Origin: Klebsiella phage 150049
Sequence record: OP045498.1
Strand: one strand, 5' to 3'
DNA length: 64,000 nucleotides
The translations under genes and the position numbers were made by a program. Shown in pieces: positions 34,478 to 64,000 of this stretch. The notes beneath the pieces were generated by a model, which saw only the letters and a list, made by a program, of their open reading frames with translations, made no database searches and had not been told where the DNA came from. The first letter of the stretch is position 1. The number at the start of each line of letters is the position of its first letter.

Positions 34478-34484
34478 CAGTTGT

Positions 34485-34736: not shown

Positions 34737-34752
34737 GAGTTAATCCAATGTT

Positions 34753-34833: not shown

Positions 34834-34840
34834 ATTTTAT

Positions 34841-35059
34841 TTAGTTAGAAATAAATAATAATCCCGCAACAATGGAACCTACGCCACTGAATACCATTAT
34901 CAGCATAGCTTCTAAGCTGATAAAGCGGACAGTATATGGAGCGCCCCAAGAATAATCAGTAAAGAAAGTTTTCTTTTCTTTAGCTAAATCTTTAACAGTT
35001 CTAAAATAGATAGCTAGTGCTAAAGCTGCAAGAACTACAGAGGTTGCTAAGAATACCAT
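34841..35059 (-). CDS. small membrane protein
   Basis: Two TM segments. Confidence 0.4.
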   Translation of the reverse strand: MVFLATSVVLAALALAIYFRTVKDLAKEKKTFFTDYSWGAPYTVRFISLEAMLIMVFSGVGSIVAGLLFISN

Positions 35060-35078
35060 ATTATTTCCTTAATTTGTT

Positions 35079-35154
35079 TGGTGGAGTCACTCAGAATTGA
35101 ACTGAGTTCCACTGCTTGCAAGGCAGTAAGTTTAACCAAATAACCTATGACCCC
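35079..35154 (-). tRNA. tRNA-Ala (TGC)
   Basis: G3:U70 pair; anticodon arm ACTGC CTTGCAA GCAGT. Confidence 0.7.
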
Positions 35155-35159
35155 GAATT

Positions 35160-35233
35160 TGGTGGAGAAAGAGGGAGTTGAACCCTCGTCTTCTGCGTGC
35201 AAAGCAGATGTTCTACCATTAAACTATATCCCC
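35160..35233 (-). tRNA. tRNA-Ala (TGC), second copy
   Basis: G3:U70; anticodon arm TCTGC TTTGCAC GCAGA identical to E. coli tRNA-Ala. Confidence 0.75.
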
Positions 35234-35560
35234 AAAATCTTTTAGTTTACTAAGGCTATTAGCTCGGTGTGCGTAATACCCTCGGCAATTAGCCATGCGA
35301 GGATACCCGCTCTCCACAAACCCGATACACTATTCAGTTGCCGCTGAATCTAGTGGACTAATCTAGAACTTCTTGCAAAGTATCCCCCGCCATTAGGGGT
35401 CTAATTGCAACCGTGCTTTTTGGCAGCCAGTCCTAGGTCGAGCTAATACCTTAGTGAACTAAATTGATGGATATCAGACTAATTTTGCTACGGCGTTTAT
35501 CCTGAGGATCTCTTTTTCGGTAGCTCTGCTAGTGTAGACGTCATACACCTGATATCTAGG

Positions 35561-35640
35561 CAGCTATTTTCACATCAATTTATATAAATATTATAACAAG
35601 AAATTAAGCATCAAGCAAGTACATTTTTAGCAATTTCTTG
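35561..35640 (-). promoter_or_regulatory. early promoter cassette
   Basis: Conserved cassette upstream of CDS 35611-35970. Confidence 0.5.
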
Positions 35641-35970
35641 TAGTTCCTTAACGTCACTAACGAAAAGGTAGTCAGAGCTTCCAGAGTGCATACTCTGCAT
35701 AACCACACCACCATCCGGTGCATCTTCTTTCAAAGTAATACCTAACCAGAACTCGGCAAAACTAGGTGTTACCTCACCTTGACTTGCCTTGAACACATCG
35801 CCTTCTGTAATCTCTTGACCAGTGGAGAGTCCCATGTATGGTACGTTCAGATCAATATCTTTGTAGAATTCAGCTAGATCTTGCTCGAAATCCCAACCTT
35901 TAGAGATAGCGAACTCCATTGTTACATGACCGAAATAGCCTTGAACCTTGCTTGATAATTGCATTTGCAA
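35611..35970 (-). CDS. hypothetical protein
   Basis: ORF. Confidence 0.5.
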   Translation of the reverse strand: MQMQLSSKVQGYFGHVTMEFAISKGWDFEQDLAEFYKDIDLNVPYMGLSTGQEITEGDVFKASQGEVTPSFAEFWLGITLKEDAPDGGVVMQSMHSGSSDYLFVSDVKELQEIAKNVLA

Positions 35971-35989
35971 TTCCTTATTTTGAGTTAAT

Positions 35990-36063
35990 TGGTACTCGGT
36001 GATAGAATCGAACTATCGCAACCGCCGTGTAAAGACGGGGTTCTCCCATTAAACTAACCGAGC
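35990..36063 (-). tRNA. tRNA-Val (TAC)
   Basis: Anticodon arm CCGTC TTTACAC GGCGG; T-arm GATAG TTCGATT CTATC. Confidence 0.75.
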
Positions 36064-36196
36064 AAAAGACGTCCTATAATATAGGCTTCAACTACAAATT
36101 CACAGAAACCTGCTAAAAACATACCTATTGTAAAATCGGCAGAGAATACATAGGAATCTTTTATTTTCTGCTTCATTAAGTAAAACCAGATAGTCA

Positions 36197-36514
36197 TTAA
36201 AATCTCTCCATTCTAAAGCCAATGAAGTAAGGTGCATTACATGGAACATGCTTAAGATCTTTAAGAGTAATTTTACGTCCTAAGCGTCGTTCCATACAAG
36301 TGAAACATAGAACAATATCTTTGGGCTGCTCTTTTCTTATCTGATCCCAGACCCAATCTTCAACCATACACATTTCATGGTATTGTTCACAGTCTCGACA
36401 ATAATGTCGCTGATGTTCTGGTACTTTTTGATTTTTAATACACAGTTCAGTAAAGCGTTTTCCGGCTCTGCCAGACATTTCTGATATTGTTTCTAGAACT
36501 TTGTTAATATTCAT
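36197..36514 (-). CDS. Cys/His-rich protein
   Basis: HYCRDCEQYHEMC ... CFTCMERR. Confidence 0.5.
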   Translation of the reverse strand: MNINKVLETISEMSGRAGKRFTELCIKNQKVPEHQRHYCRDCEQYHEMCMVEDWVWDQIRKEQPKDIVLCFTCMERRLGRKITLKDLKHVPCNAPYFIGFRMERF

Positions 36515-36531
36515 AACAAATTCCTTTAAAT

Positions 36532-36610
36532 TGGTAGACCGCCTGGGACTCGAACCCAGAACCTTCCGGTTAAAAGCCGGGTGCTGCTAAACCAATTGAG
36601 CTAGCGATCT
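36532..36610 (-). tRNA. tRNA-Lys (TTT)
   Basis: Anticodon hairpin CCGG CTTTTAA CCGG; T-arm CTGGG TTCGAGT CCCAG; D-region 3 nt longer than canonical. Confidence 0.55.
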
Positions 36611-36612
36611 AT

Positions 36613-36777
36613 TTAGTACATATATACTTCTTTAATAGAGTAGACTTTTAAGTAAGGATGATTAATACCAAATTCCGCCATCACTTCGTTTTCATCTTTA
36701 CCGTAATGGGCTAGTGGATACTTCTTACGATCTTTGCTAGAACGTAGATCACTTACTTTTAAACGAAATAATTTCAT
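36613..36777 (-). CDS. 54 aa small protein between tRNAs
   Basis: AGAAGGA RBS before ATG 36777; stop at 36613. Confidence 0.35.
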   Translation of the reverse strand: MKLFRLKVSDLRSSKDRKKYPLAHYGKDENEVMAEFGINHPYLKVYSIKEVYMY

Positions 36778-36798
36778 TTCGAAATCCTTCTATTAAAT

Positions 36799-36876
36799 TG
36801 GAAGCGGGTGTAGGAATCGAACCTACCTCTTTCTAGCTTATGAGACTAGCGATCTCTACCAGAGATCTAACCCGCA
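36799..36876 (-). tRNA. tRNA-Met (CAT)
   Basis: D-arm GATC TCTGGTAGA GATC; anticodon arm CTAGT CTCATAA GCTAG. Confidence 0.65.
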
Positions 36877-36882
36877 ATTGTT

Positions 36883-36960
36883 TGGTCTCCGTGGGAGGAT
36901 TTGAACCCCCGACCCTACCGCCCCAAACGGAACGCTCTGGCCAAACTGAGCTACACGGAG
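36883..36960 (-). tRNA. tRNA-Pro (TGG)
   Basis: Perfect acceptor CTCCGTG/CACGGAG; anticodon loop TTTGGGG as in E. coli tRNA-Pro. Confidence 0.75.
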
Positions 36961-36963
36961 AAT

Positions 36964-37030
36964 ATTCTTTGTTAACTCACTTTATAAAATATATTATACA
37001 GATATTTAAGCATAATAGCAAATGAGTTTT
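36964..37030 (-). promoter_or_regulatory. early promoter cassette driving tRNA transcription (no RBS or ATG)
   Basis: Cassette -35/-10 immediately upstream of the tRNA-Pro 5' end. Confidence 0.5.
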
Positions 37031-37272
37031 TAATAAATTTACTTATTGCGTAGGCCACCTCACGCTTCAAACGCTCTGCTGACAAAGAAGTTTGCGAGAC
37101 TTCTCTTAAATGCCAGAATAGACCCGCCGATCTATCGGAACCTACTCAATAAGTAAACTTTCGTTTACCTACACCTACCTGGTCGGGAGGATTTTCAGCG
37201 ACTAGAACCGGCCGGAAACTCATCGCCTTGTTTATCTAGGAGTCCGTTCTCTAGGAAGCAGAAACCTAAATT

Positions 37273-37346
37273 TGGTGCGGTCGGAGGGAATCGAACCCTC
37301 AACTTTTGGTTGGCAACCAAAAATTATACCTTTTAACTACGAACGC
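37273..37346 (-). tRNA. tRNA-Gly (GCC)
   Basis: Anticodon arm TTTGG TTGCCAA CCAAA. Confidence 0.7.
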
Positions 37347-37355
37347 ATAATAAGT

Positions 37356-37477
37356 CAATCTAGGCAGGACTTGAACCTGCTATCACTTGTGCGGATTTAC
37401 GAGAACCATTCTTTCACTCGAATCGAACGAGCTTCTACCCTCGGCAAGCTGGTGTCCCCTCTCCACCACGCTAGAAT
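37356..37477 (-). ncRNA. aberrant ~122-nt tRNA-like element with two T-arm-like hairpins
   Basis: GCAGG TTCAAGT CCTGC and GCTCG TTCGATT CGAGT hairpins; acceptor-like arms ATTCTAG/CTAGATT pair 6/7; no canonical cloverleaf. Confidence 0.25.
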
Positions 37478-37549
37478 GTTTGTTAATGAATAGAGTCCGG
37501 TGTAGCAGTCCGTAAGGGTGCACCTACTGTAGCCTTTACTCTATTTGTT

Positions 37550-37626
37550 TGGTACTCCCAGAAGGACTTGAACCTTCAACCCTCCGCTTAAGAGGCGGTA
37601 GCTCTGACCAGTTGAGCTATGGAAGC
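37550..37626 (-). tRNA. tRNA-Lys (CTT)
   Basis: T-arm GAAGG TTCAAGT CCTTC; anticodon hairpin CCGC CTCTTAA GCGG. Confidence 0.6.
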
Positions 37627-37627
37627 A

Positions 37628-37819
37628 TTAAATCTCTTTTAAGAAATCTTTAGGAATAGTAAAACTAGGATAATCACCTGTTTCGTCTAATGTTACACTT
37701 GTATGCTCTATTCCAGTATATCGAGTATCATCTGAGGCTAAACCATAATCATGAAATTTCAATGAGTATACAGTTTGTCCTGCATGTTCACCTTTAATAA
37801 CTAAATATTTGCGTGTCAT
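37628..37819 (-). CDS. hypothetical small protein
   Basis: Start moved to ATG 37819 (AGGA RBS) to avoid tRNA-Asp. Confidence 0.4.
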   Translation of the reverse strand: MTRKYLVIKGEHAGQTVYSLKFHDYGLASDDTRYTGIEHTSVTLDETGDYPSFTIPKDFLKEI

Positions 37820-37833
37820 ACTATATCCTAAAT

Positions 37834-37910
37834 TGGCGCGACCGATGGGATTCGAACCCACATTCTCTCCCGTGACAGGGGAGTACCATTACCAAGCCAG
37901 CCCCGATCGC
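37834..37910 (-). tRNA. tRNA-Asp (GTC)
   Basis: Anticodon arm CTCCC CTGTCAC GGGAG; T-loop TTCGAAT. Confidence 0.75.
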
Positions 37911-37919
37911 ATAATTTGT

Positions 37920-38105
37920 TTACTCAGCTTTGAGTTTTTTGATAGCTTCCTCAACCTCTTTTAGAGCTTCACGACGCTCTACTTGACCTTGAAGTTCTTC
38001 AAGAAGTTCAGCTTTCAGAGCCTTAATAATATTACCACGAACCTTAATATTATTAATTAGATTATCACGATCAGCTTCTAGTCGAGCAATTGCACGAGTT
38101 GTCAT
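37920..38105 (-). CDS. small coiled-coil protein
   Basis: ORF. Confidence 0.4.
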   Translation of the reverse strand: MTTRAIARLEADRDNLINNIKVRGNIIKALKAELLEELQGQVERREALKEVEEAIKKLKAE

Positions 38106-38207
38106 ATCTATTTCCTCAGTTATTAATGAAAATGGTATCTGTGACTGAATTCGATATCAGTAATGATAGCTGGTTGGCTACCGGTTTACTTAACTCTACA
38201 CAGAATA

Positions 38208-38290
38208 TGGCGGGCCGTGTAGGATTCGAACCTACGTTGTCTTTCGACATGGATTAACAGTCCACCGCCAAACCGCTTGGCTAACGACCC
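38208..38290 (-). tRNA. tRNA-Asn (GTT) with extended variable loop
   Basis: Anticodon arm GTGGA CTGTTAA TCCAT as in E. coli tRNA-Asn, but a 13-nt variable region (83 nt total). Confidence 0.6.
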
Positions 38291-38297
38291 TAAAATT

Positions 38298-38373
38298 TGG
38301 ACGACCGCATGAGATTCGAACTCACATAAGGAGGTTTTGCAGGCCTCCGCCTAAGCCATTCAGCCAACGGTCG
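38298..38373 (-). tRNA. tRNA-Cys (GCA)
   Basis: Anticodon CTGCAAA; discriminator U73; T-arm GTGAG TTCGAAT CTCAT. Confidence 0.7.
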
Positions 38374-38551
38374 ATTTATCTTGCTTTTCGAGATTAGTAA
38401 ACTCTAGATCTTTAGAATGTCCTATAGATCTAGCATAATAGCCATCTCCAGCATCATAGCCTGACTTACCACACTCACACATCTTAAACTCTCTATAACG
38501 AGTGAAAATATGTTCAGAACCACAACACTTAAATTTAACTAACATTTTCAT
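38360..38551 (-). CDS. zinc-ribbon small protein
   Basis: CCGSEH ... CECGKS; 3' end overlaps the tRNA-Cys 5' end by 14 nt. Confidence 0.35.
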   Translation of the reverse strand: MKMLVKFKCCGSEHIFTRYREFKMCECGKSGYDAGDGYYARSIGHSKDLEFTNLEKQDKSTVG

Positions 38552-38790
38552 TTAACACGCTCCGGTAAATCTTCGAGTTTATATTGAGTAGCCACATTAG
38601 CAGCATCTAGTAACAAACCCATATGTTTAAGAATCCTAGTGATAGCCTCGCCTTCTGCTTCTTCTACAAAAGTGCGTAGTTGAATGAAGTCAATACCACC
38701 ATCCATACCAGAGAAAATGTTAAGTAAGCGAAGCATTACCAGCTTACGTTCTTTCAGTTCTTGTTCTGTCATGTTGCTTCTCCAGTTCAA
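38548..38790 (-). CDS. hypothetical protein
   Basis: ORF; cassette upstream. Confidence 0.45.
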   Translation of the reverse strand: MNWRSNMTEQELKERKLVMLRLLNIFSGMDGGIDFIQLRTFVEEAEGEAITRILKHMGLLLDAANVATQYKLEDLPERVK

Positions 38791-38860
38791 TTTATGTAAT
38801 AATTATACAGAACTTTAAGCGGTTAAGCAACTACATTTTTCAGAAATATGATGCCTTTCT
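38791..38860 (-). promoter_or_regulatory. early promoter cassette
   Basis: Conserved cassette. Confidence 0.5.
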
Positions 38861-39110
38861 TTTTCTTCTTATACTTCCACGTTAATGGATTCTGTCTATT
38901 ATGAACGCTTGAGATCTTTGTCTCGTCAAAGTTCTTCAATACCATGTAATCACAGGCCAACTGTTCTAGTGGGATGTGATCTCCGTCAAAAGCATAAACA
39001 TAAGGTTGTTGACTAGCACGATAATGATAGACTTTGTTAATTCTACGTTTCAGTGACTTATCCGCACAGTAAATAAAGAAGTTTTCAGGATGCATCAGCA
39101 TCTCCTTCAA
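38823..39110 (-). CDS. hypothetical protein
   Basis: ORF; its 3' end overlaps the cassette span upstream of CDS 38548-38790. Confidence 0.45.
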   Translation of the reverse strand: MKEMLMHPENFFIYCADKSLKRRINKVYHYRASQQPYVYAFDGDHIPLEQLACDYMVLKNFDETKISSVHNRQNPLTWKYKKKKKGIIFLKNVVA

Positions 39111-39112
39111 AT

Positions 39113-39187
39113 TGGTGCACCCTGTTCGTATCGAACGAACCTCTCAAGCTCTTCAGGCAAGCGCTAATCCATCTCAGCTAAAGGTGC
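39113..39187 (-). tRNA. tRNA-Phe (GAA), weak anticodon stem
   Basis: Acceptor and T-arm (GTTCG TTCGATA CGAAC) good; loop CTGAAGA; anticodon stem has two U-U mismatches. Confidence 0.45.
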
Positions 39188-39193
39188 AAATAT

Positions 39194-39270
39194 TGGCAAA
39201 CCTACTAGGACTCGAACCTAGACCGTACGGTTTTGGAGACCGACATGCTGTCCAGTAACACTCTAGGAAT
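39194..39270 (-). tRNA. tRNA-Trp (CCA)
   Basis: Anticodon arm TCGGT CTCCAAA ACCGT as in E. coli tRNA-Trp; acceptor has two mismatches. Confidence 0.6.
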
Positions 39271-39278
39271 GCAGAAAT

Positions 39279-39355
39279 TGGCGTCCTGTGCGGGGATCGA
39301 ACCCGCAAATCCTACCTTGAAAGGGTAGTGACTTTACCAGTTTGTCTAACAGGAC
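39279..39355 (-). tRNA. tRNA-Glu (TTC)
   Basis: Perfect acceptor GTCCTGT/ACAGGAC; anticodon arm CTACC CTTTCAA GGTAG. Confidence 0.8.
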
Positions 39356-39362
39356 TTAAATT

Positions 39363-39453
39363 TGGTGTTGGATGATGGAGTCGAACCACCCGAGACCCTT
39401 CCGAGTCGGCAGATTTACAGTCTGCTTCGCTACCTCTACGATACTAATCCAAC
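39363..39453 (-). tRNA. tRNA-Tyr (GTA), class II
   Basis: Perfect acceptor GTTGGAT/ATCCAAC; anticodon arm GCAGA CTGTAAA TCTGC identical to E. coli tRNA-Tyr; long variable arm. Confidence 0.8.
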
Positions 39454-39582
39454 ATATTTAGAAATATTCAAATACTAGTTTAAACACTTTTAAATATGTT
39501 TTCCAAATTAGATAACTATTATATCAAGTTTTGAAGGACTGAGCAAGTCAAATTTTAAAGAACTTGCTCAGTGCTATATCAG

Positions 39583-39858
39583 TTACTCGAAGCTAGGAGT
39601 GACACTCAGTTTGAATGGAAGCTCGAACACTTCTTCATAATCATCATTGAGCGTAATTACACGACCTTCTAGCTTAGTCATGGTGATTTCGATATCAGCC
39701 TTTGCATCAGGAGCCATACCAGCTTCCACACATTTAGCTTTGACTTCCGGCAGAAGTTCTACATCGTAGAAATAAAGCCATTCAATCTCACCTTCCCAGC
39801 CACCCCAGGATTTACAAACAGCACTTTCAACACCAGTTGCAGTAACACGTTTTGACAT
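39583..39858 (-). CDS. hypothetical protein
   Basis: ORF; cassette upstream. Confidence 0.45.
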   Translation of the reverse strand: MSKRVTATGVESAVCKSWGGWEGEIEWLYFYDVELLPEVKAKCVEAGMAPDAKADIEITMTKLEGRVITLNDDYEEVFELPFKLSVTPSFE

Positions 39859-39935
39859 TCGTTAACTCCTTCATCAATTTATATAACTATTATAGCAGAA
39901 ATCTTAAGTAAAAAGCAAGTACATTTTTAAAATTT
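39859..39935 (-). promoter_or_regulatory. early promoter cassette
   Basis: Conserved cassette. Confidence 0.5.
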
Positions 39936-39948
39936 CTGCTTGGAGGAG

Positions 39949-40155
39949 TTAAACTCCTGATTCTTCTGCCAGATCAAGCCCAACCAATGTGATTGCCATA
40001 ATAGCCGCGCCATGTTCTTTCTCTCCTAGCTCTTTGGCTTGAGTGAGAATATTGAGGAATTGCTTCTGAAAATCTGCAACTTCTTCTGTCATGCCTGCTT
40101 CAGCAATAATTCCTTTCAGCATAAAGCGTTGTGCCGTAATTTCAGGATTAGCCAT
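39949..40155 (-). CDS. hypothetical small protein
   Basis: ORF. Confidence 0.4.
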   Translation of the reverse strand: MANPEITAQRFMLKGIIAEAGMTEEVADFQKQFLNILTQAKELGEKEHGAAIMAITLVGLDLAEESGV

Positions 40156-40168
40156 TTATTATCTCCAG

Positions 40169-40291
40169 TTATTTAGAATGTAAGCCAAACTTAGGATCAT
40201 AGCGATCGTAAGTCGTACCATTAGTTGAAGCCTTGATGCTATGAAAACGACAGTACATAAATTTACGTAGTGCTTTCTTAATAGCTTTCAT
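40169..40291 (-). CDS. 40 aa basic peptide
   Basis: AAGGAAATAAA ATG at 40291; stop at 40169. Confidence 0.3.
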   Translation of the reverse strand: MKAIKKALRKFMYCRFHSIKASTNGTTYDRYDPKFGLHSK

Positions 40292-40306
40292 TTTATTTCC
40301 TTAATT

Positions 40307-40383
40307 TGGTAGGGGTGGTGGGATTCGAACCCACAAAACCTGAATTTTAAGTCCAGTACCTATGCCAATTCGATTACACCCCC
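40307..40383 (-). tRNA. class-I tRNA with UAA anticodon (Leu by anticodon)
   Basis: Acceptor GGGGGTG/CACCCCT; T-arm GTGGG TTCGAAT CCCAC; anticodon arm CTGGA CTTAAAA TTCAG; short variable loop is unusual for Leu. Confidence 0.5.
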
Positions 40384-40391
40384 ATGTAATC

Positions 40392-40730
40392 TTAGCGAAT
40401 CTCTAAACCCTGGAAATATCGAGGGAATGGAGAGCCAACTTCAAAATTGATGCCCCAGTTAAGTTCAACGAGTTCAGATTTATTAAGATCTAGGCCATTA
40501 CCTTCAAAGATATAGCCGTAAACCGCAGGGAACATAGCTGCTAGATCTTCCATATCGGAATGAGCATTGTGTTCTTCACGGAACTGCTCAAACTCTTCAA
40601 AGAACTTTTCTAGGAAAAACTCAGGTACGATGAACGTTACCACATCAGTAGAATCATCGGTACGATACACCGTAGCTTGGAACAAGCCAACACCTAAAAG
40701 GTTTATTGCCGGAGTAGTAAAAATATCCAT
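40392..40730 (-). CDS. hypothetical protein
   Basis: Start ATG 40730 with GAGAGAGG RBS. Confidence 0.45.
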   Translation of the reverse strand: MDIFTTPAINLLGVGLFQATVYRTDDSTDVVTFIVPEFFLEKFFEEFEQFREEHNAHSDMEDLAAMFPAVYGYIFEGNGLDLNKSELVELNWGINFEVGSPFPRYFQGLEIR

Positions 40731-40731
40731 C

Positions 40732-40917
40732 TTAGCCTCTCTCAATGTCTAGACAAATTGCATATTCAGGGTTGATACCAGTACCTTTACATGTAGGACA
40801 TTCCCATTCTCTACAGAAAATATCCCCAGGCTCTGCATCATCCTGCCTACCACCACCATGACAGTCCTTACACCGACATTCTTCTAATGCTTTCTTCATT
40901 TCATAGAATCTAGACAT
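40732..40917 (-). CDS. zinc-ribbon small protein
   Basis: CRCKDCHGG ... CPTCKG. Confidence 0.4.
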   Translation of the reverse strand: MSRFYEMKKALEECRCKDCHGGGRQDDAEPGDIFCREWECPTCKGTGINPEYAICLDIERG

Positions 40918-40935
40918 ATAGTCTCCTAGTTAATT

Positions 40936-41012
40936 GGTGGCTCCCGGAGGATTCGAACCTACCTACCTTTCGCTTATGAGGCGACGGCTCATACCAAATG
41001 AGCTTGAGAACC
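40936..41012 (-). tRNA. tRNA-Met (CAT), third CAT tRNA
   Basis: D-arm GCTC ATTTGGTAT GAGC; anticodon loop CTCATAA. Confidence 0.6.
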
Positions 41013-41017
41013 AAATT

Positions 41018-41111
41018 TGGAGGAAGATGCCAGACTCGAACTGGCACACCGTGTCTCCACAGCTACTGGCTGTTTAGCAAACAGCTCCCTTACCTTTAGG
41101 GTTAATCTTCC
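41018..41111 (-). tRNA. tRNA-Ser (GCT), class II
   Basis: Perfect acceptor GGAAGAT/ATCTTCC; anticodon arm GCTGT TTGCTAA ACAGC; long variable arm. Confidence 0.75.
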
Positions 41112-41112
41112 A

Positions 41113-41175
41113 AATTTATGAATATATTATACAGAAAATTTCGGCATTAAGCAAGTGAAATTTTACTGAACATTG
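41113..41175 (-). promoter_or_regulatory. early promoter cassette driving the tRNA cluster (no RBS or ATG)
   Basis: Cassette directly upstream of the tRNA-Ser(GCT) 5' end. Confidence 0.5.
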
Positions 41176-41459
41176 CACTGATATACCTGTTTGATACGTG
41201 TCACTGACTTCTTAGTTGGGTTGATAGAAGAACCCTGCCACCAACGTGACTCTGAGCTAAGAACAGCACTAGGAACAGCCTGCTCTTTTGGCAGAACAAT
41301 ATCAAAACACTGTTCACCCATATTATCTTTAATGTGTGACCAAATATCCAAAGTAAATCGTTCTAACTTATTACAAACCTGAACTTGACAAAGTTCCTGT
41401 TGCGGAGCAGCAAATACAGAAGTAGATACTAGAGTCAATGCAAGTACAATGCGTTTCAT
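41163..41459 (-). CDS. secreted small protein
   Basis: Signal peptide MKRIVLALTLVSTSVFAAP; its 3' end overlaps the cassette 41113-41175. Confidence 0.45.
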   Translation of the reverse strand: MKRIVLALTLVSTSVFAAPQQELCQVQVCNKLERFTLDIWSHIKDNMGEQCFDIVLPKEQAVPSAVLSSESRWWQGSSINPTKKSVTRIKQVYQCNVQ

Positions 41460-41530
41460 GTTTGATTCCTCTCTCGAATTTATAAATATATTATACAGAA
41501 ATTTTCTATATTAAGCAAGTGAAAATTTCT
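41460..41530 (-). promoter_or_regulatory. early promoter cassette inside an 18-bp perfect inverted repeat
   Basis: TATTATACAGAAATTTTC / GAAAATTTCTGTATAATA flank the -35 TTGCTT. Confidence 0.55.
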
Positions 41531-41534
41531 GTAT

Positions 41535-41565
41535 AATAGCCCTCTAAGCGAGGGCTATAACTACT
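41535..41565 (-). terminator. hairpin after pnuC
   Basis: TAGCCCTC GCTTA GAGGGCTA. Confidence 0.4.
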
Positions 41566-42258
41566 TTATTTGTTAACGCGTACAAAGTATCCTTTATAAG
41601 CTCCAAGAATAGAGTTGCCTAAGAATACTAGCCACATTGCTAGGATTGCGTAAGATGCACCTGTAGATTGAGCAGTTACAAGCCAAATGTACACAGTACC
41701 AATGTTAATAGCAATCCAAATCAGCCATTGTTCAGCATATTGTTTGACCATAAGCCACATAGCAATCACACTACCAACCGCAGTAAATGCGTCAAGCATT
41801 GGGAATGGATCAGCGGTAGTAGCAAGGAAGCTGCCATATCCTAAAGTAGCTACTGCTAGAACCCCTAGAGTCAGCAAAGCTTGAGCTTTGCTCAGAATCT
41901 TAGTTGGAACATCTGGCAGATTACTTGGCTTATTTTTATGCCATAAGTACATTCCATAAAACTGCATAGGAACATAGTATAGCAGGTTTAGTGCAGCGTT
42001 ACCATAAAGATCTGCATTTAAAGCCGTAATACCATAGGTAAGAACTCCAACTAAGCCCCAAATATAGTTGGAAACACGTCCTTTTGCAACCAGAATAACA
42101 CAAACCACGTTGGTTATTGCAGTAGCCCAATCTAGAGCTGTACCATTATAGTTTGCTAAACTAATAAAGGCGACTGCTATAAACAGCCACAGATATTCCA
42201 AAGGTTTCCAGTTTTTAAAGTCATTTACAAGATAGTTAGTCATATTAAAACTCTCCAA
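41566..42258 (-). CDS. pnuC: PnuC-family nicotinamide riboside transporter
   Basis: 230 aa, about 7 TM helices, W/Y-rich PnuC-like pattern; adjacent to the nadR-like gene. Confidence 0.65.
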   Translation of the reverse strand: MESFNMTNYLVNDFKNWKPLEYLWLFIAVAFISLANYNGTALDWATAITNVVCVILVAKGRVSNYIWGLVGVLTYGITALNADLYGNAALNLLYYVPMQFYGMYLWHKNKPSNLPDVPTKILSKAQALLTLGVLAVATLGYGSFLATTADPFPMLDAFTAVGSVIAMWLMVKQYAEQWLIWIAINIGTVYIWLVTAQSTGASYAILAMWLVFLGNSILGAYKGYFVRVNK

Positions 42259-43300
42259 CGTTAAAGTGATGAATCAGCCAGTCTACTGCGTTTACTGCTT
42301 CGTCCATACGAACCTTATAGTCCGGGGAGTCAATATATACAGTACGCCCTTCTGGGAACTGATTAGGAAATTCTTTCTTCATCTGCTCGAACAGTTCAGA
42401 AGTAATTGAACGATCGGAGTTAATACGTAAACCATCATCTACCCACTTAACAGTAGGTGCTAAAACTATAACTAAATCATAATGCTCTTCTTTAGCAATA
42501 GCTGTTACAACCGGATTTTTACGATGCTCGTAAAGTCTGTGATAAAACTCTGTAATGAAAGCATTTGTGTCTACAAACATGATCTTATTTGCAGTACGTT
42601 CTGCCTCAAACTCTAGCTCTTTGTGCCTGAATGCAATTTTATTATAGTCCTCGCTAGTCAGGAGTTCTTCATTACCAACTAGATCAACTTCGCAGTAAGT
42701 ACGACCATATTCTTCTACCCACGAAGTATTATATAATTTCGCAAGGTACTTTGTTAAAGTTGTTTTGCCGGAGCTTTCAGTACCAATGATAACAACCTTA
42801 CGCACGTAGTCTTTACGAACTACGCTAGGTAGGAATTCCCAATACTTCATAAGATCATTACGAATCATAGTAGCTGAGATTGGAACACGAGTCCGATCAG
42901 AGTCTACAATATAATGTCCAAACTTCGGCAGATATTTCTTATATTCTGCATCATAGTCTATTTCGCTAGAGAAAATGGTAATTTCAGGCAAATGGCCATA
43001 ATTATCATTCAGGATTCTAGCATATTCTGGCCAACCGTTTGGGTACTCTGGAATATCATCTTCAATAATGTACTCTACCGAAACATGCTCGATATCAGCA
43101 TAAGTTTGCTCAAGCCAACGCAGTCGATTCTTTAACTGCAAGACTTCCTGATCACGTGTGTTTTGTTTATCCAGCCAGCGATTATCATGACTAACTACAA
43201 CAATAACTCGCTCACACATAGTTGCTGCTGTATTAATTAAGTTAATATGACCACGCGTTAATGGTGCGAACTTACCAATTACTAGACCAGTCTTAATCAT
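42245..43300 (-). CDS. nadR: NadR-like bifunctional NMN adenylyltransferase / ribosylnicotinamide kinase (no HTH domain)
   Basis: N-terminal GKFAPLTRGH (HxGH nucleotidyltransferase); C-terminal P-loop IIGTESSGKTTL; start ATG 43300 with cassette RBS. Confidence 0.7.
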   Translation of the reverse strand: MIKTGLVIGKFAPLTRGHINLINTAATMCERVIVVVSHDNRWLDKQNTRDQEVLQLKNRLRWLEQTYADIEHVSVEYIIEDDIPEYPNGWPEYARILNDNYGHLPEITIFSSEIDYDAEYKKYLPKFGHYIVDSDRTRVPISATMIRNDLMKYWEFLPSVVRKDYVRKVVIIGTESSGKTTLTKYLAKLYNTSWVEEYGRTYCEVDLVGNEELLTSEDYNKIAFRHKELEFEAERTANKIMFVDTNAFITEFYHRLYEHRKNPVVTAIAKEEHYDLVIVLAPTVKWVDDGLRINSDRSITSELFEQMKKEFPNQFPEGRTVYIDSPDYKVRMDEAVNAVDWLIHHFNVGEF

Positions 43301-43375
43301 ATTTGATTCCTCTCTCAAATTTATAAATATATTATACAGAGAATTTAGCATTCAAGCAATTGAATTTTTAAACTT
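43301..43375 (-). promoter_or_regulatory. early promoter cassette
   Basis: Conserved cassette. Confidence 0.55.
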
Positions 43376-43484
43376 TTTAGTGGAAAATCGCAGGGCACTT
43401 AAGGGTAGCAGGTGAGTGGTGAGGTCCAGAAATTGTTACCCCAACAGAAATTCGGGGGCAATTTTTAAAGACCCCTTGACATTT

Positions 43485-43556
43485 TCGCTGGGGTAGTGTA
43501 AAGTATATGTTATGGATGAGTGATCAAAGAGACACACAATTTCTATATACTAGGAG
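43485..43556 (+). promoter_or_regulatory. sigma70-like promoter TTGACA-17-TAAAGT
   Basis: Upstream of plus-strand operon 43557-45192; RBS AGGAGG. Confidence 0.5.
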
Positions 43557-44549
43557 GTGTCAAAAATGACAGAAGAAGCAACTAAGAAACCTGAGACCGT
43601 CAGTGAAGTCGCAGCAGAACTGAGACGTCATGAGGAATCAGACAAACATAAGTGGGAGAAGGTCAAGGCCTACGAAAAGAAACATCGTGATCACGATGAT
43701 GACGATGAAGATGACGACCATGAGGGCTGTCATAAACATAGGAAACATAAAATGCAAGAACCAGTAAACGTATTCACTAGCGGCTTCCCAGGTCTGATGG
43801 GTGGTTACCCAGCAGTAGCAAATGGTGCTTTCGGCGGTGAAGGTATGGGTCTATTCGGAGCCATCCTGATTGGTGCTCTATTAACAGGCGGATTCGGTGG
43901 TTTCGGTGGTTTCGGACGTGGTGCTGGTGTTGCCGCTGAGGGAACTGCTGTGGATGCTATCCTATCTAACCAGGATACTGCAAGTATTCTAGCTGCAATC
44001 AACACTGCTCGTACCGAAGCGAATCAAGGTACTGGTGCTGTTCTGAGCGCTGTTAATGGTGTAGGTGCTGCTCAAGCTTCTAGCACTCAACAGATTCTGA
44101 CTACTGTGTATGGTACTGGTGCTAACCTGTCCAACCAGATCTGTCAGGAAACTCGTAACGTTATTCAGGGTCAGTTCGATCTTTCTCGCCAGATGGATCA
44201 AGCTTTCGCTGCTAACCAGATCGCTCGTGCACAAGACAAGTTTGACTCTGCCCAGATTGCTTTCCAGCAGTCTCTTCAGACTAACAACCAGTTTGCCGCT
44301 GTTCAGGCTCAGATGTGTGCTAACCAGAACGCTATCGAACGTCAGCTTGCTGAGTGCTGCTGCGAACTTCAGACTGCGATTGCTGGTGTAACTACTGCGC
44401 GTATCCAAGACGAACTGAATGAATGCCGTCTGCGTGAAGCAATCGCTGCAGGTAGCGGTGCAAACGGTCAGGTAATCAATCAAATCGCTGTAAGCCTGGG
44501 TGCAATTACTCAGACTCTAGCAGCTCTACAGGCTAAAGTACCAGCCTAA
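43557..44549 (+). CDS. low-complexity protein: His/Asp-rich N-terminus, Gly-rich TM-like segment, Gln/Ala-rich coiled region
   Basis: 330 aa; HRDHDDDDEDDDHEGCHKHRKHK then GGFGGFGGFG then Q/A/N-rich repeats. Confidence 0.55.
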   Translation: MSKMTEEATKKPETVSEVAAELRRHEESDKHKWEKVKAYEKKHRDHDDDDEDDDHEGCHKHRKHKMQEPVNVFTSGFPGLMGGYPAVANGAFGGEGMGLFGAILIGALLTGGFGGFGGFGRGAGVAAEGTAVDAILSNQDTASILAAINTARTEANQGTGAVLSAVNGVGAAQASSTQQILTTVYGTGANLSNQICQETRNVIQGQFDLSRQMDQAFAANQIARAQDKFDSAQIAFQQSLQTNNQFAAVQAQMCANQNAIERQLAECCCELQTAIAGVTTARIQDELNECRLREAIAAGSGANGQVINQIAVSLGAITQTLAALQAKVPA

Positions 44550-44571
44550 TCTTTAAGGGGAGGAGCCCATT

Positions 44572-44988
44572 ATGAGTAAATATGGTTTTGTGAACAACGG
44601 ATTTAATCAACCAATGGGCTCTCAGCAGCCCATTCCGGGTCTGGATAACCCTTACCTACAACAGTTGCAACAGCGTTTAGCAGAAGCGCAACAGATGCAG
44701 CAGCAACTCCAGCAAAACCCTGGAAGTGTGAGTCCTATGCAAATGATGCAGCAAATGAGCGGGCAGTCGCAAATGCCTCAACAAATGCAGCAACAGGTGC
44801 CTCAGCAGCAAGTTCAGCAACAAACCCAACAACCGCAGGTTTCTGCGGAAGGACAGGCAGTACTAGCCCTTTTCGAAGACTTCGCAAAGACAGAGGATGG
44901 GAAACAGCTTGTATCACTTATGGGTAAGTTTAATAGCTTCTGCCAAAGCCAAGTTGCAAAAGCTCAAAATGGCGGTAATAACTCCTAA
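44572..44988 (+). CDS. Gln-rich (prion-like) protein
   Basis: QQLQQRLAEAQQMQQQLQQN...QQMQQQVPQQQVQQQTQQPQ. Confidence 0.5.
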   Translation: MSKYGFVNNGFNQPMGSQQPIPGLDNPYLQQLQQRLAEAQQMQQQLQQNPGSVSPMQMMQQMSGQSQMPQQMQQQVPQQQVQQQTQQPQVSAEGQAVLALFEDFAKTEDGKQLVSLMGKFNSFCQSQVAKAQNGGNNS

Positions 44989-44997
44989 GGAGGAATT

Positions 44998-45192
44998 ATG
45001 TGTTGCAGAAAATCTGTTTCGTGCTGCCCAATACCTGTAGCACGTTGTTGCTCTCCAGCAATGTTTACACAAATACCGGTGTTCAATCCGTTTACCTTTA
45101 AGCCTACTCTTATCCTGCCCCCTAGAGTAGATTTTCAGTCAAGATTGGTCTCCCGTATGGGTGGTTGTTGTAACAAGAGAGTATGGTTCTAA
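44998..45192 (+). CDS. Cys-rich small protein (CC, CC, CC pairs)
   Basis: MCCRKSVSCCPIPVARCC ... GGCCNK. Confidence 0.4.
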   Translation: MCCRKSVSCCPIPVARCCSPAMFTQIPVFNPFTFKPTLILPPRVDFQSRLVSRMGGCCNKRVWF

Positions 45193-45200
45193 ACCAAAAA

Positions 45201-45233
45201 ACAAAAGCCCCTGCCGAAAGGTAAGGGGCTTTT
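45201..45233 (+). terminator. rho-independent terminator
   Basis: AAAAGCCCCT gccgaaaggta AGGGGCTTTTTCTTTT. Confidence 0.65.
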
Positions 45234-45251
45234 TCTTTTGCCTTAAATACA

Positions 45252-45290
45252 GAAAAGCCCGCGCTCTCGAAGGAAACGCGGGCTTGGTTC
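45252..45290 (-). terminator. rho-independent terminator (convergent)
   Basis: AGCCCGCG ... CGCGGGCT followed by TTTTCTGTATTT on the minus strand. Confidence 0.55.
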
Positions 45291-45308
45291 GAAGATTACG
45301 TGTAACTA

Positions 45309-46253
45309 TTACTTGTTACGCATATCCATGATCATTTGACCATCGTAGCCAGTACCGACAACAGTCTGTGGTACACCACCTTGGTATTTTTCAGCACGAA
45401 GCATTTCAACTTCCAGCTGCTTCCAACGAATCATTTCAGGAGTAATGGTACGTTGCAGAGCGGCGTTAGCTTCAGCTTCTTTCTTAGCTGCGTACAGTTT
45501 AGCATCTGCGTCACGTTCGTTAGCTACTGCCATGTTTTCACGAGCGGAACGATCTGCCTCAGCTTGCTTAACTTTCTGCTGTGCTTCTTGTTCAACACGA
45601 GCCAGTTCAGCTTTTGCAGCGTTAACTTGTTCTTCACGAACTTTGGTGTTCTGTACCTGTTCCATGATTACCGGTGGCAGAGTAATATCCTGAAGGAATA
45701 CTTGCTTAACGGTGTAACCATAAGGACGCGCATACTCTTCTACTTCTTGCTGAATAGCGGTTTGCAGTTGAGCCTGAATCTTAGCGTCGAACAGATCTTG
45801 TGCTTTTGGTACAGACTTACCAAACTCACGAATCGTAGACAGCATCTTCTCTTCAACGTACTTGTTCAGAGCTTGATCCTGAGTACCTGCGTTAACACGG
45901 TTCATAGGAGCTTTAGCACCATCAAACTGCAACATAACGGTAATGTCAACAGTAGACTTAAACTTATCCTGGCTAGGAACCTGAAGTTTATCCAGTTTCA
46001 TGGAAATATCTTTCGTACTAAAAGTATCAAAAGAAGCAAATGGGTTAACAATATGGAAGCCTGGCAGTACAGGGTTCGGGCTAACTTTACCCAGGAAGGT
46101 TTGAGTCTTAACAGTACCATCCTGAACAACTGTGTAGGAATTGAGAGCCAGAATAAGAGCGCCAAGACCAACTACAGCACCAACACCCCAACGTTTAATA
46201 GTACGAATTACTTTTTGATCGGAAGTCAGTTCTTTAGTGTTTTTAGTAAACAT
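45309..46253 (-). CDS. SPFH/band-7 (prohibitin/HflC-like) membrane protein
   Basis: N-terminal TM then a PHB-like domain and coiled coil. Confidence 0.6.
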   Translation of the reverse strand: MFTKNTKELTSDQKVIRTIKRWGVGAVVGLGALILALNSYTVVQDGTVKTQTFLGKVSPNPVLPGFHIVNPFASFDTFSTKDISMKLDKLQVPSQDKFKSTVDITVMLQFDGAKAPMNRVNAGTQDQALNKYVEEKMLSTIREFGKSVPKAQDLFDAKIQAQLQTAIQQEVEEYARPYGYTVKQVFLQDITLPPVIMEQVQNTKVREEQVNAAKAELARVEQEAQQKVKQAEADRSARENMAVANERDADAKLYAAKKEAEANAALQRTITPEMIRWKQLEVEMLRAEKYQGGVPQTVVGTGYDGQMIMDMRNK

Positions 46254-46264
46254 ATATTTCCTTA

Positions 46265-46465
46265 TTATTTAGAAGAGTTAGCTACTACAGTTACTTTAGT
46301 TGCAGAAATAAACAGGCTAGCATCCACAGCAAATTCAGGAGCTTTGATATCTCCGTTATGAAATATGACTATACCGGAGACTACTTCAAATGCTAGCGCT
46401 GTAACATCGGTGGTATTTACTTGTGAATGTTCACCTACTACTTTTACTATATATCGTGTTTTCAC
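46265..46465 (-). CDS. hypothetical small protein
   Basis: ORF. Confidence 0.35.
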   Translation of the reverse strand: MKTRYIVKVVGEHSQVNTTDVTALAFEVVSGIVIFHNGDIKAPEFAVDASLFISATKVTVVANSSK

Positions 46466-46491
46466 TTTATTTTCCTAGCAGTTAATAAAAT

Positions 46492-46566
46492 TGGCCGAGG
46501 TGACAGGATTCGAACCTGCATAAAGGAATTTAGAAGACTCCTGCCTATCCCTTAGACTACACCCCG
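46492..46566 (-). tRNA. tRNA-Arg (TCT)
   Basis: T-arm GCAGG TTCGAAT CCTGT; anticodon loop CTTCTAA. Confidence 0.75.
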
Positions 46567-63445: not shown

Positions 63446-63608
63446 TTTAGAAAATATGCTTATGGAGCAGTGGAATGCTGGGTATAATGCTGGAGTAGCT
63501 ACCTGTATTGCTGGTTTGGATATGCTTATTAAGCAAGAGAAGGTTCGCCCAGAAGAAGCAATTCTGCTCCAAAATATCATCGAAGGATTCAAGCAAGGAA
63601 TCGTATAA
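63411..63608 (+). CDS. hypothetical small protein
   Basis: GGAGG RBS before ATG 63411; overlaps the previous ORF by 35 nt. Confidence 0.35.
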   Translation, partial: FMDFLNQNLKSNLENMLMEQWNAGYNAGVATCIAGLDMLIKQEKVRPEEAILLQNIIEGFKQGIV

Positions 63609-64000
63609 TGCGTAGACTAATCGTTGTTAGTGGTGCAGGTTTGAGTGTAGATAGTGGTGTTCGTGCTTTCCGTACTGATACTGCTAGTGGGAAATCCTTG
63701 TGGGATGAGTACGATCTAGAGGAAGTATGTAGCTTGCCTAACTTTGAAGCTGGCTTCCGTCGCTTCTGTGGTGAAGATGATCCTAACTACTTCAGTGCTC
63801 GTTTCCCTGGCATTGATAAAGATGGTAACGATCTGTATCTCAAGACTCATGAGTTCTACAACATGCGTCGTCAGGAATTACAGACTGTTGAGCCTAACAT
63901 TGCCCATCTGCGAATTGCAGAATGGTTCCAGCGTTATGGTGCGGATAGCGTGAAGAACTTCACTACTAACGTTGATGACCTTCTGGAACGTGCTGGTATC
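63608..64000 (+). CDS. Sir2-family NAD-dependent protein (N-terminal part; continues beyond window end)
   Basis: VVSGAGLSVDSGVRAFR matches the sirtuin GAGxSxxSGIPxFR NAD-binding motif; TAATG overlap. Confidence 0.6.
   Translation, partial: MRRLIVVSGAGLSVDSGVRAFRTDTASGKSLWDEYDLEEVCSLPNFEAGFRRFCGEDDPNYFSARFPGIDKDGNDLYLKTHEFYNMRRQELQTVEPNIAHLRIAEWFQRYGADSVKNFTTNVDDLLERAGI

What the first reader, a model, noticed from the sequence alone, without database searches (positions are those of the whole stretch)
41566..43375. Phage NAD-salvage pair (PnuC transporter + HTH-less NadR-like NMNAT/NR-kinase), with a Sir2-like gene elsewhere in the window
The two adjacent early genes together can import nicotinamide riboside and convert it via NMN to NAD+. 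Their own cassette promoter places them in early expression. Known phage NAD-reconstitution routes use different enzymes (ADPR-PP synthetase plus Namat, or Nampt plus NMNAT). A PnuC plus NR-kinase/NMNAT route would be a third way to rebuild NAD+ after depletion by Sir2, TIR or SEFIR defence effectors. The same phage encodes a sirtuin-like protein at 63608 onward (NAD-consuming or ADP-ribosylating), so NAD turnover may be deliberately managed. KVP40-type vibriophages have a related NAD-salvage set, so the novelty is in the module composition and its possible counter-defence role.
Basis: partly seen in the sequence, partly recalled or inferred. Interest (0 to 1): 0.7.

Follow-up and report, generated by a model that had tools for sequence, protein, structure and literature searches.

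The report
Known phage NAD+ salvage pair, NARP3
Two adjacent early genes of a T5-like Salmonella/E. coli phage import nicotinamide riboside and convert it to NAD+, which helps phages survive bacterial defences that destroy NAD+. The same module, with 98% identical proteins, was published in August 2026 as "NARP3", so the find is real but no longer new.

Summary
On the minus strand, one promoter-to-hairpin unit holds a 351-aa NadR-like enzyme (43300..42245) with NMN-adenylyltransferase and ribosylnicotinamide-kinase domains and no HTH. It is followed one base later by a 225-aa PnuC nicotinamide-riboside transporter (42243..41566).

The window comes from a T5-like phage (Demerecviridae, Epseptimavirus; 99.5% identical to Salmonella phage JNwz02 here).

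Yan et al., Sci Adv, 12 Aug 2026 (PMC13464706) named the pair Bas30_86/Bas30_87 of Escherichia phage TrudiRoth "NARP3". They showed NR binding by the transporter, NR to NMN to NAD+ catalysis, and crystal structures 9X6H/9X6F. They also showed NR-dependent rescue of T7 and lambda from Sir2-HerA, and counteraction of DSR1.

The window's proteins are 345/351 and 220/225 identical to Bas30_86/87. All 20 residues that the paper names or mutates are unchanged, and the promoter, ribosome-binding site and hairpin are almost identical.

The Sir2-like gene at 63608 is real. Its relatives occur in many phages that lack this module, so a specific link is not supported.

One small lead is new. A conserved 98-aa secreted protein just downstream also sits beside NadR and PnuC in two unrelated phage lineages.

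Verdict: already known, low interest.

The parts
43305..43373 (-). Sigma-70 promoter of the T5 PN25 type with leader and ribosome-binding site. It has an A-rich upstream stretch, -35 TTGCTT (43359-43354), a 17-nt spacer, -10 TATAAT (43336-43331) and GAGAGAGGAA before the ATG at 43300.
   Evidence: Read directly and found by pattern search. It matches T5 PN25 at 53/69 positions. From about 145 nt upstream of the ATG (column ~155 of the alignment) the window and phage TrudiRoth differ at only three scattered positions, and they are identical from the -35 hexamer to the start codon. The generic promoter scan missed it because TTGCTT matches TTGACA at only 3 of 6 positions.
42245..43300 (-). NadR-like bifunctional enzyme, 351 aa: an NMN adenylyltransferase domain plus a ribosylnicotinamide kinase domain, with no HTH. 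It is the orthologue of Bas30_86.
   Evidence: Pfam and NCBIfam hits and PHROG 3462 at E 1.8e-152. It is 345/351 identical to Bas30_86 and matches PDB 9X6F/9X6H at E 6e-239. Motifs GKFAPLTRGH (9), ISATMIR (141), GTESSGKT (173), FVDT (242) and WVDDGLR (286) are present, and all 17 residues named in the paper are unchanged.
41566..42243 (-). PnuC-type nicotinamide riboside transporter, 225 aa, orthologue of Bas30_87. Its ATG lies one base after the NadR-like stop codon (TAAT-ATG).
   Evidence: PF04973 and TIGR01528 and PHROG 1880 at E 4.3e-74. It is 220/225 identical to Bas30_87. The NR-binding residues N45, Q94 and N180 are unchanged. It matches Neisseria mucosa PnuC (4QTN) at E 1.5e-31. The gene junction was read.
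41536..41558 (-). Hairpin with a perfect 9-bp stem directly after the PnuC stop codon. It is the probable end of the operon, although its U-tract is weak.
   Evidence: RNA fold gives -18 kcal/mol with z = -5.1 against shuffles. The equivalent site is annotated as a terminator in phage Sw2 and is identical in TrudiRoth.
41163..41532 (-). Second copy of the same promoter and RBS cassette (41532-41464), followed by a 98-aa secreted protein with four invariant cysteines (41459-41163, PHROG 6894, function unknown). It may be an accessory of the module, but this is not established.
   Evidence: for the cassette and the PHROG hit. Homologues lie beside NadR and PnuC in two other phage lineages but not in several others.
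63608..64000 (+). N-terminal 131 codons of a Sir2-like (CobB-like sirtuin) gene, cut off by the end of the window. It belongs to the same phage, but no evidence places it in the module.
   Evidence: PF02146 at E 2.4e-11. The 131 residues are identical to TrudiRoth bas30_0054. The closest solved relative is E. coli CobB (1S5P) at E 1.6e-16.

Best explanation
This is the NARP3 NAD+ reconstitution operon of a T5-like (Epseptimavirus) phage.

Host RNA polymerase transcribes the two genes early, from a strong T5 PN25-type promoter, as one unit that ends at a hairpin. The PnuC-type protein sits in the inner membrane and lets external nicotinamide riboside (NR) into the cell. The HTH-less NadR-like enzyme traps NR by phosphorylating it to NMN with ATP in its C-terminal kinase domain. 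It then adenylates NMN to NAD+ in its N-terminal NMNAT domain.

Because the supply comes from outside the cell, NAD+ can be refilled while a defence NADase such as Sir2-HerA or DSR1 is destroying it. Phage replication can then continue.

What is shown here: the domains, motifs, operon anatomy and near-identity to Bas30_86/87.
What is shown in the literature for the 98% identical proteins: NR binding, both catalytic steps, NAD+ restoration and NR-dependent rescue of T7 and lambda.
What is inferred: the window's proteins behave the same way, expression is early, and the operon serves this role during infection by its own phage.
For: - Domain and family hits are far above the curated cut-offs.
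- The proteins are 345/351 and 220/225 identical to Bas30_86/87.
- The NadR-like protein matches PDB 9X6F/9X6H at E 6e-239. The paper names these entries as the Bas30_86 structures.
- All 17 NadR-like residues and all 3 PnuC residues named or mutated in the paper are unchanged.
- Differences from Bas30 are mostly silent: 85 synonymous against 6 non-synonymous codons in the NadR-like gene, and 38 against 5 in PnuC. This indicates purifying selection.
- The start of PnuC abuts the NadR-like stop codon.
- The promoter, RBS and hairpin are conserved.
- Published experiments support the mechanism (PMC13464706):
  - NR binds the transporter with Kd ~0.66 uM.
  - HPLC shows NR to NMN to NAD+ conversion.
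  - NAD+/NADH pools are restored.
  - Phage sensitivity on Sir2-HerA strains rises 10^3- to 10^4-fold, and only when both genes are present.
  - The EC50 for NR is 3.6-5.6 uM.
- The pair is kept in about 205 phage records at 90% protein identity or more.
Against: - No experiment was done on this sequence.
- The published work expressed the genes from plasmids and tested T7, lambda and Klebsiella phages. The authors state that the function could not be examined in the native phage.
- The pathway needs external NR and does not recycle the ADPR and nicotinamide left by the NADase. Its value in nature therefore depends on NR supply.
- The hairpin after PnuC lacks a clean U-tract, so some read-through is possible.
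- Early timing is inferred from the promoter type and the position in the genome. It was not measured.
Confidence: 0.9

Rival explanations
1. The pair is a general auxiliary metabolic module rather than a counter-defence. It raises the NAD+ supply for the phage's own NAD+-using enzymes and for host metabolism during a large burst, whether or not any defence system is present. The phage enzymes would include the Sir2-like protein and, in T5-like phages, an NAD+-dependent DNA ligase (the ligase is from general knowledge and was not checked here).
For: - The same genome carries a Sir2-like gene.
- NadR and PnuC homologues occur in many large phages, including jumbo, Bacillus, Vibrio and Lak phages. 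They are filed in PHROGs as auxiliary metabolic genes.
- The native-phage phenotype has never been tested.
- The biochemistry is the same under either reading.
Against: - Expression of the pair gives a strong, defence-specific rescue, and both genes are required.
- T5-like Tequintaviruses have a Sir2-like gene. Where the slot was examined, in HildyBeyeler, the module is absent and another gene takes its place. The module is therefore not needed for core T5-type replication.
- The two readings are not exclusive.
Confidence: 0.25
2. The transporter carries another vitamin (some PnuC-family members carry thiamine or riboflavin), or the enzyme has lost one of its activities. In either case the pair would not make NAD+ from NR.
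For: The PnuC family includes transporters for other substrates (general knowledge). The NadR-like protein falls below the cut-off of one NCBIfam model, TIGR01526 (270.6 bits against 341.15).
Against: - The PnuC equivalog model TIGR01528 is passed.
- The NR-binding residues N45, Q94 and N180 are intact.
- The 98% identical protein binds NR, and the 98% identical enzyme carries out both steps.
- The full-length NadR model PRK08099 is passed.
- The TRGH, ISATMIR, Walker A and B, and WVDDGLR motifs are all present.
Confidence: 0.03
3. The NadR-like protein acts mainly as a regulator of host NAD genes, as bacterial NadR does, so that the phage reprograms host transcription.
For: Bacterial NadR is a transcriptional repressor as well as an enzyme (named in NCBIfam PRK08099).
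Against: The DNA-binding HTH is absent. The profile match starts at position 54 of 411, and the ORF cannot extend far enough upstream to hold one. No HTH family was hit in Pfam.
Confidence: 0.01

Closest known systems
NARP3 (Bas30_86/Bas30_87 of Escherichia phage TrudiRoth, MZ501109; Yan et al., Sci Adv 2026, PMC13464706; PDB 9X6H, 9X6F)
   Same: The gene order is the same, the one-base junction is the same, and the promoter, RBS and hairpin are almost identical. The proteins are 98% identical, and every residue the paper names is unchanged. The phage genus is also the same, Epseptimavirus.
   Different: There are only 6 and 5 conservative amino-acid changes, away from the named residues. The window also carries a ~2-kb divergent two-gene insert just upstream of the operon that TrudiRoth lacks.
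Bacterial NadR plus PnuC (Haemophilus influenzae NadR, PDB 1LW7; Neisseria mucosa PnuC, PDB 4QTN)
   Same: The two enzyme domains, the motifs and the transporter fold family are the same. The chemistry is the same: NR to NMN to NAD+.
   Different: The phage enzyme has no HTH repressor domain. The phage genes are fused into one operon, whereas E. coli pnuC and nadR lie at separate loci (paper text). The relationship is distant by sequence, with E 4e-55 and 1.5e-31 rather than near-identity.
NARP2 (Nampt plus NMNAT, as in vibriophage KVP40-type phages; Osterman et al. 2024)
   Same: Both end with adenylation of NMN to NAD+, and both counter NAD+-depleting defences.
   Different: NARP2 makes NMN from nicotinamide and PRPP inside the cell. 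This module makes NMN by phosphorylating imported NR and needs a transporter. None of the four ORFs of 400 aa or more in the window is a Nampt. Three gave no such Pfam hit, and the fourth corresponds by position to the ribonucleotide reductase alpha subunit of TrudiRoth.
NARP1 (ADPR-pyrophosphate synthetase Adps plus Namat; Osterman et al. 2024)
   Same: The purpose is the same: rebuilding NAD+ during infection.
   Different: NARP1 recycles the defence's own breakdown products, ADPR and nicotinamide. This module uses an external precursor and unrelated enzymes.

Membership tests
NARP3 (phage NadR-like + PnuC operon) | PnuC-type NR transporter with the NR-coordinating residues N45, Q94 and N180 | tested here: met
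   PF04973 and TIGR01528 are above cut-off. The protein is 220/225 identical to Bas30_87, and the three residues are unchanged.
NARP3 (phage NadR-like + PnuC operon) | NadR-like enzyme with NMNAT and ribosylnicotinamide-kinase domains and no HTH | tested here: met
   Domain hits. The protein is 345/351 identical to Bas30_86. It matches 9X6F at E 6e-239. The 17 named residues are unchanged.
NARP3 (phage NadR-like + PnuC operon) | The two genes are adjacent on one strand, enzyme first, as a single operon in a phage genome | tested here: met
   The gap between stop and start is one base. There is a promoter before the first gene and a hairpin after the second. The nearest records are T5-like phages.
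NARP3 (phage NadR-like + PnuC operon) | Catalyses NR to NMN to NAD+ and imports NR | not testable with these tools
   This is inferred from 98% identity to proteins for which it was shown.
NARP3 (phage NadR-like + PnuC operon) | Restores NAD+ and phage growth in cells carrying Sir2-HerA or DSR1 | not testable with these tools
   This was shown for Bas30_86/87 expressed from plasmids. It has not been shown for any native phage.
Canonical trifunctional bacterial NadR | [quoted passage not shown] | tested here: not met
   The PRK08099 match covers profile positions 54-407 of 411. The longest ORF adds only 17 residues upstream. No HTH family was hit in Pfam.
Canonical trifunctional bacterial NadR | Nucleotidyltransferase signatures ((H/T)xGH and ISxTxxR) and kinase Walker A/B motifs | tested here: met
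   TRGH within GKFAPLTRGH at residue 9, ISATMIR at 141, GTESSGKT at 173 and FVDT at 242.
NARP2 (Nampt + NMNAT) | A nicotinamide phosphoribosyltransferase (Nampt/NadV) gene | tested here: not met
   This was tested within the 64-kb window only. Of the four ORFs of 400 aa or more, three gave no such Pfam hit, and the fourth corresponds by position to the ribonucleotide reductase alpha subunit of TrudiRoth. The rest of the phage genome is not in the window.

The most novel reading that the evidence does not exclude
The published two-gene definition of NARP3 may miss a third partner. This is the 98-aa secreted protein with four invariant cysteines encoded immediately downstream (41459..41163) under a duplicate of the operon's promoter cassette.

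Homologues at 53-66% identity lie directly beside NadR-like and PnuC genes in two other, unrelated phage lineages. These are Eneladusvirus-type jumbo phages and Seunavirus-type phages. The gene order there differs from the order here.

The protein could act in the periplasm, for example by capturing, producing or protecting nicotinamide riboside for the transporter.
Probability: 0.12. Interest if true: 0.45.

Novelty: already known. Interest (0 to 1): 0.15.

Why it matters
NAD+ depletion is one of the commonest ways bacteria abort phage infection, and phage routes that rebuild NAD+ decide which phages get through. This window adds another natural allele of the third such route, NARP3, in a Salmonella-type T5-like phage. 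The whole unit (promoter, two genes, hairpin) is conserved and under purifying selection.

It brings no new principle. The pathway, its structure and its counter-defence activity were published in 2026 for proteins 98% identical to these.

Three questions remain open:
- Does the operon matter during infection by its own phage? This has never been tested.
- How does NR availability limit its effect?
- Does the neighbouring secreted protein take part?

Tried and rejected
1. Regulatory RNA. I scanned 40800-45400 against Rfam at a permissive threshold for an NAD+ riboswitch or pnuC-motif RNA. Only the two tRNAs and sub-threshold hits on a hairpin near 45200 came up.

2. Generic promoter and terminator scan. 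It did not exceed shuffled expectation and missed the real promoter, because TTGCTT scores only 3 of 6 against TTGACA. The promoter was found by reading the sequence and comparing it with T5 PN25.

3. Function of the 98-aa secreted protein.
- It has no Pfam or PADLOC hit.
- All 75 homologues are unnamed.
- The AlphaFold2 model is of moderate quality (pLDDT 74).
- Its linkage to NadR and PnuC is only partial. It is absent within 4-8 kb of the gene in L013, L017, L018, L020, L026-L032 and L035-L038. The neighbours there include ribonucleotide reductase, SPFH and NUDIX genes.

4. Two ~330-aa plus-strand proteins (9416-10411 and 43557-44549). I tested whether they are paralogues, and they are not. 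PADLOC gave nothing for the neighbours of the operon.

5. A specific Sir2-like/NARP3 coupling. I rejected this on distribution.

6. A literature search for the word 'NARP3' alone returned only unrelated papers. The relevant paper was found through gene names.
Full report
**What is at the coordinates**

Two ORFs on the minus strand fill 41566-43351.

The downstream ORF is a PnuC transporter.
- It matches Pfam PF04973 (NMN_transporter) at E 4.6e-43.
- It matches the NCBIfam PnuC equivalog TIGR01528 at 120.1 bits, against a cut-off of 42.45.

The upstream ORF is a NadR-like enzyme.
- It has a cytidylyltransferase-like domain (PF01467) followed by a P-loop kinase domain (PF13521 AAA_28).
- It passes the full-length NadR model PRK08099 at 260.5 bits, against a cut-off of 201.
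- Only profile positions 54-407 of 411 are matched, so the N-terminal helix-turn-helix of bacterial NadR is missing.
- The reading frame cannot supply an HTH, because the longest ORF adds only 17 codons upstream.

Both proteins fall in existing phage protein families: PHROG 1880 ("PnuC-like nicotinamide mononucleotide transport") and PHROG 3462 ("nicotinamide-nucleotide adenylyltransferase"), at E 4e-74 and 2e-152.

**Gene boundaries and operon anatomy**

The real starts are most likely ATG 43300 (351 aa) and ATG 42243 (225 aa). These are the starts annotated in phages Sw2 and TrudiRoth, and they give full-length gap-free alignments.

The PnuC start codon follows the NadR-like stop codon after one base (TAA-T-ATG), which suggests co-transcription and possibly coupled translation.

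A promoter lies upstream of the first gene.
- It reads TTGCTT, 17 nt, TATAAT, then ATATTTATAAATTTGAGAGAGGAATCAAAT and ATG.
- It matches the coliphage T5 PN25 promoter, as printed in a primer in PMC4447248, at 53 of 69 positions. The -35 hexamer, spacer length, -10 hexamer and most of the initial transcribed region are the same.
- A 35-nt core of this cassette recurs with one mismatch in front of the next gene. No such match occurred in 100 shuffles.
- Thirteen TTGCTT-N16-18-TATAAT sites lie on the minus strand of the window and two on the plus strand. This fits a T5-type early region read by host RNA polymerase.

Directly after the PnuC stop codon is a perfect 9-bp hairpin (-18 kcal/mol, z = -5.1). 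The equivalent site is annotated as a terminator in Sw2.

Early timing is an inference from the promoter type and the position next to the tRNA cluster. It was not measured.

**Source of the window**

The 2.5-kb region is 99.5% identical to Salmonella phage JNwz02. It is 94-99% identical to many Salmonella and Escherichia phages of Demerecviridae, Markadamsvirinae, genus Epseptimavirus.

The window also holds the features typical of a T5-like genome:
- 29 tRNA genes;
- anaerobic and aerobic ribonucleotide reductases and PhoH.

[quoted passage not shown] The paper defines NARP3 as the two-gene cassette Bas30_86/Bas30_87 of Escherichia phage TrudiRoth. This is an HTH-less NadR-like enzyme plus a PnuC-type transporter.

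The paper reports the following.
- Bas30_87 is a trimer. It binds NR with a Kd of about 0.66 uM, and the N45A, Q94A and N180A mutants lose binding and function.
- Bas30_86 converts NR to NMN and NMN to NAD+ with ATP.
- Crystal structures 9X6H and 9X6F were solved, and mutants in both active sites lose function.
- Co-expression of both genes, but not either alone, restores NAD+/NADH. It raises phage T7 and lambda sensitivity 10^3- to 10^4-fold in cells with Sir2-HerA, and it also counters DSR1.
- Rescue depends on external NR, with an EC50 of 3.6-5.6 uM.

Earlier papers had already pointed this way. Iyer et al. 2022 noted phage NadR enzymes. Osterman et al. 2024 explicitly predicted that the NadR-PnuC operon of BASEL phages is a further NAD+ reconstitution pathway.

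**How close the window is to the characterised system**

I fetched TrudiRoth (MZ501109) and compared it directly.
- The NadR-like proteins are 345/351 identical, and the PnuC proteins are 220/225 identical.
- The window's enzyme matches the PDB chains 9X6F/9X6H at E 6e-239.
- All 17 Bas30_86 residues and all 3 Bas30_87 residues that the paper names or mutates are unchanged. The eleven substitutions lie elsewhere and are conservative or on variable positions.
- At the DNA level, 85 of 91 differing codons in the NadR-like gene and 38 of 43 in PnuC are synonymous. This shows purifying selection on both genes.
- The promoter, RBS, junction and hairpin are almost identical in the two phages.

All sequence-testable features of NARP3 membership are met. 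The biochemical and phenotypic features rest on the 98% identical orthologues.

**Distribution**

Proteins at least 90% identical occur in 206 (NadR-like) and 204 (PnuC) records of the phage collection. Some records are GenBank/RefSeq duplicates. This is more than the 124 hits in the paper. More distant homologues occur in 790 and 442 records across Vibrio, Klebsiella, Bacillus, Enterococcus, Erwinia, Aeromonas, Prevotella Lak and other phages.

The cassette sits in a variable slot between an SPFH-family gene and tRNA-Ser/tRNA-Met. The Tequintavirus HildyBeyeler carries an unrelated 172-aa gene in that slot. The module is therefore accessory within T5-like phages. This fits a counter-defence or niche-specific role better than a core replication role.

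**The Sir2-like gene**

The ORF starting at 63608 matches PF02146 (E 2.4e-11) and is cut off by the end of the window. Its 131 residues are identical to TrudiRoth bas30_0054, "Sir2-like protein".

The full-length orthologue is closest to E. coli CobB (1S5P, E 1.6e-16). It keeps the GAG and HxHG motifs but has no cysteines in the segment where sirtuins carry their zinc-binding CxxC pairs.

Relatives occur in 978 phage records, including Tequintavirus, rV5-like, Phapecoctavirus and KVP40-like phages. That is far more than carry the close form of this module. Some lineages do have Sir2, NadR and PnuC together.

The distribution gives no specific evidence that the Sir2-like protein and NARP3 work as a managed pair.

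**Rival readings**

- A general NAD+-supply role for the phage's own needs shares the same biochemistry and cannot be excluded. The operon has never been deleted from its native phage, a limitation the authors state.
- A different transported substrate or a dead enzyme is contradicted by the intact residues and the published assays.
- A regulatory role is excluded by the missing HTH.

**A side lead**

The next gene (41459..41163) has its own copy of the promoter cassette. It encodes a 98-aa protein with a signal peptide, four invariant cysteines and a conserved ESRW-QG-INPTK motif (PHROG 6894). Its close form occurs in about 195 phage records, nearly the same number as the operon.

Homologues at 53-66% identity lie directly beside NadR-like and PnuC genes in two unrelated lineages:
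- Eneladusvirus-type jumbo phages (L011, L016, L019, L021-L023, L033);
- Seunavirus-type phages (L012, L024, L025, L034).

There the small gene lies upstream of the enzyme rather than downstream of the transporter.

In at least six other contexts, no NadR or PnuC gene lies within 4-8 kb. The neighbours there include ribonucleotide reductase, SPFH or NUDIX genes.

**Verdict**

However, it is a near-identical copy of a system that has now been named, solved and functionally tested. Novelty: already known. Interest is low. What remains is the untested native-phage role and the possible accessory protein.

Noticed in passing
window 41163-41532 (-): A 98-aa secreted protein with four invariant cysteines (PHROG 6894, no known function) follows PnuC under a duplicate of the NARP3 promoter cassette. 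Homologues lie beside NadR-like and PnuC genes in Eneladusvirus-type jumbo phages and Seunavirus-type phages, but not in several other phage contexts. The predicted fold has no match in the PDB.
   Followed up: partly
window 43420-45300 (+), genes 43557-44549 and 44572-44988: A divergently oriented two-gene insert lies between the NARP3 promoter and the SPFH gene, with higher G+C (0.47 against ~0.40). Protein 1 (PHROG 8119) has a His/Asp/Lys-rich N-terminus, a Gly-rich hydrophobic stretch and a Gln/Ala-rich tail. Protein 2 is Gln-rich. The insert is absent from TrudiRoth and present at full length in 217 of 378 matching phage records. Its function is unknown, with no Pfam or PADLOC hit.
   Followed up: partly
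window 63608-64000 (+) and L009 5560-6411 (-): The phage Sir2-like protein is CobB-like and keeps the GAG and HxHG motifs. It has no cysteines where sirtuins carry their zinc-binding CxxC pairs, so it is an atypical sirtuin of untested activity. Relatives are widespread, in 978 phage records.
   Followed up: partly
window 45309-46253 (-); also L030 8400-9722 and L036 3918-5234: An SPFH/Band_7 protein is encoded just upstream of the module. SPFH genes also lie near homologues of the small secreted protein in two unrelated metagenomic phage contigs.
   Followed up: no
window 31868-46566 (-): 29 tRNA genes are interleaved with many very short ORFs, as is typical of T5-like phages. The NARP3 cassette sits inside this array, between tRNA-Ser/tRNA-Met (40935-41111) and tRNA-Arg (46492-46566).
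   Followed up: no
window 9416-10970 (+): A second plus-strand gene pair lies within the mostly minus-strand region. It comprises a 331-aa DUF7566 protein (E 2.6e-135) and a 164-aa protein with no family. It is not related to the 43557-44549 protein.
   Followed up: partly
window 45195-45300: A strong hairpin between the convergent genes 44572-44988 (+) and 45309-46253 (-) drew several sub-threshold Rfam hits (leader and sRNA models). It is probably a bidirectional terminator.
   Followed up: no
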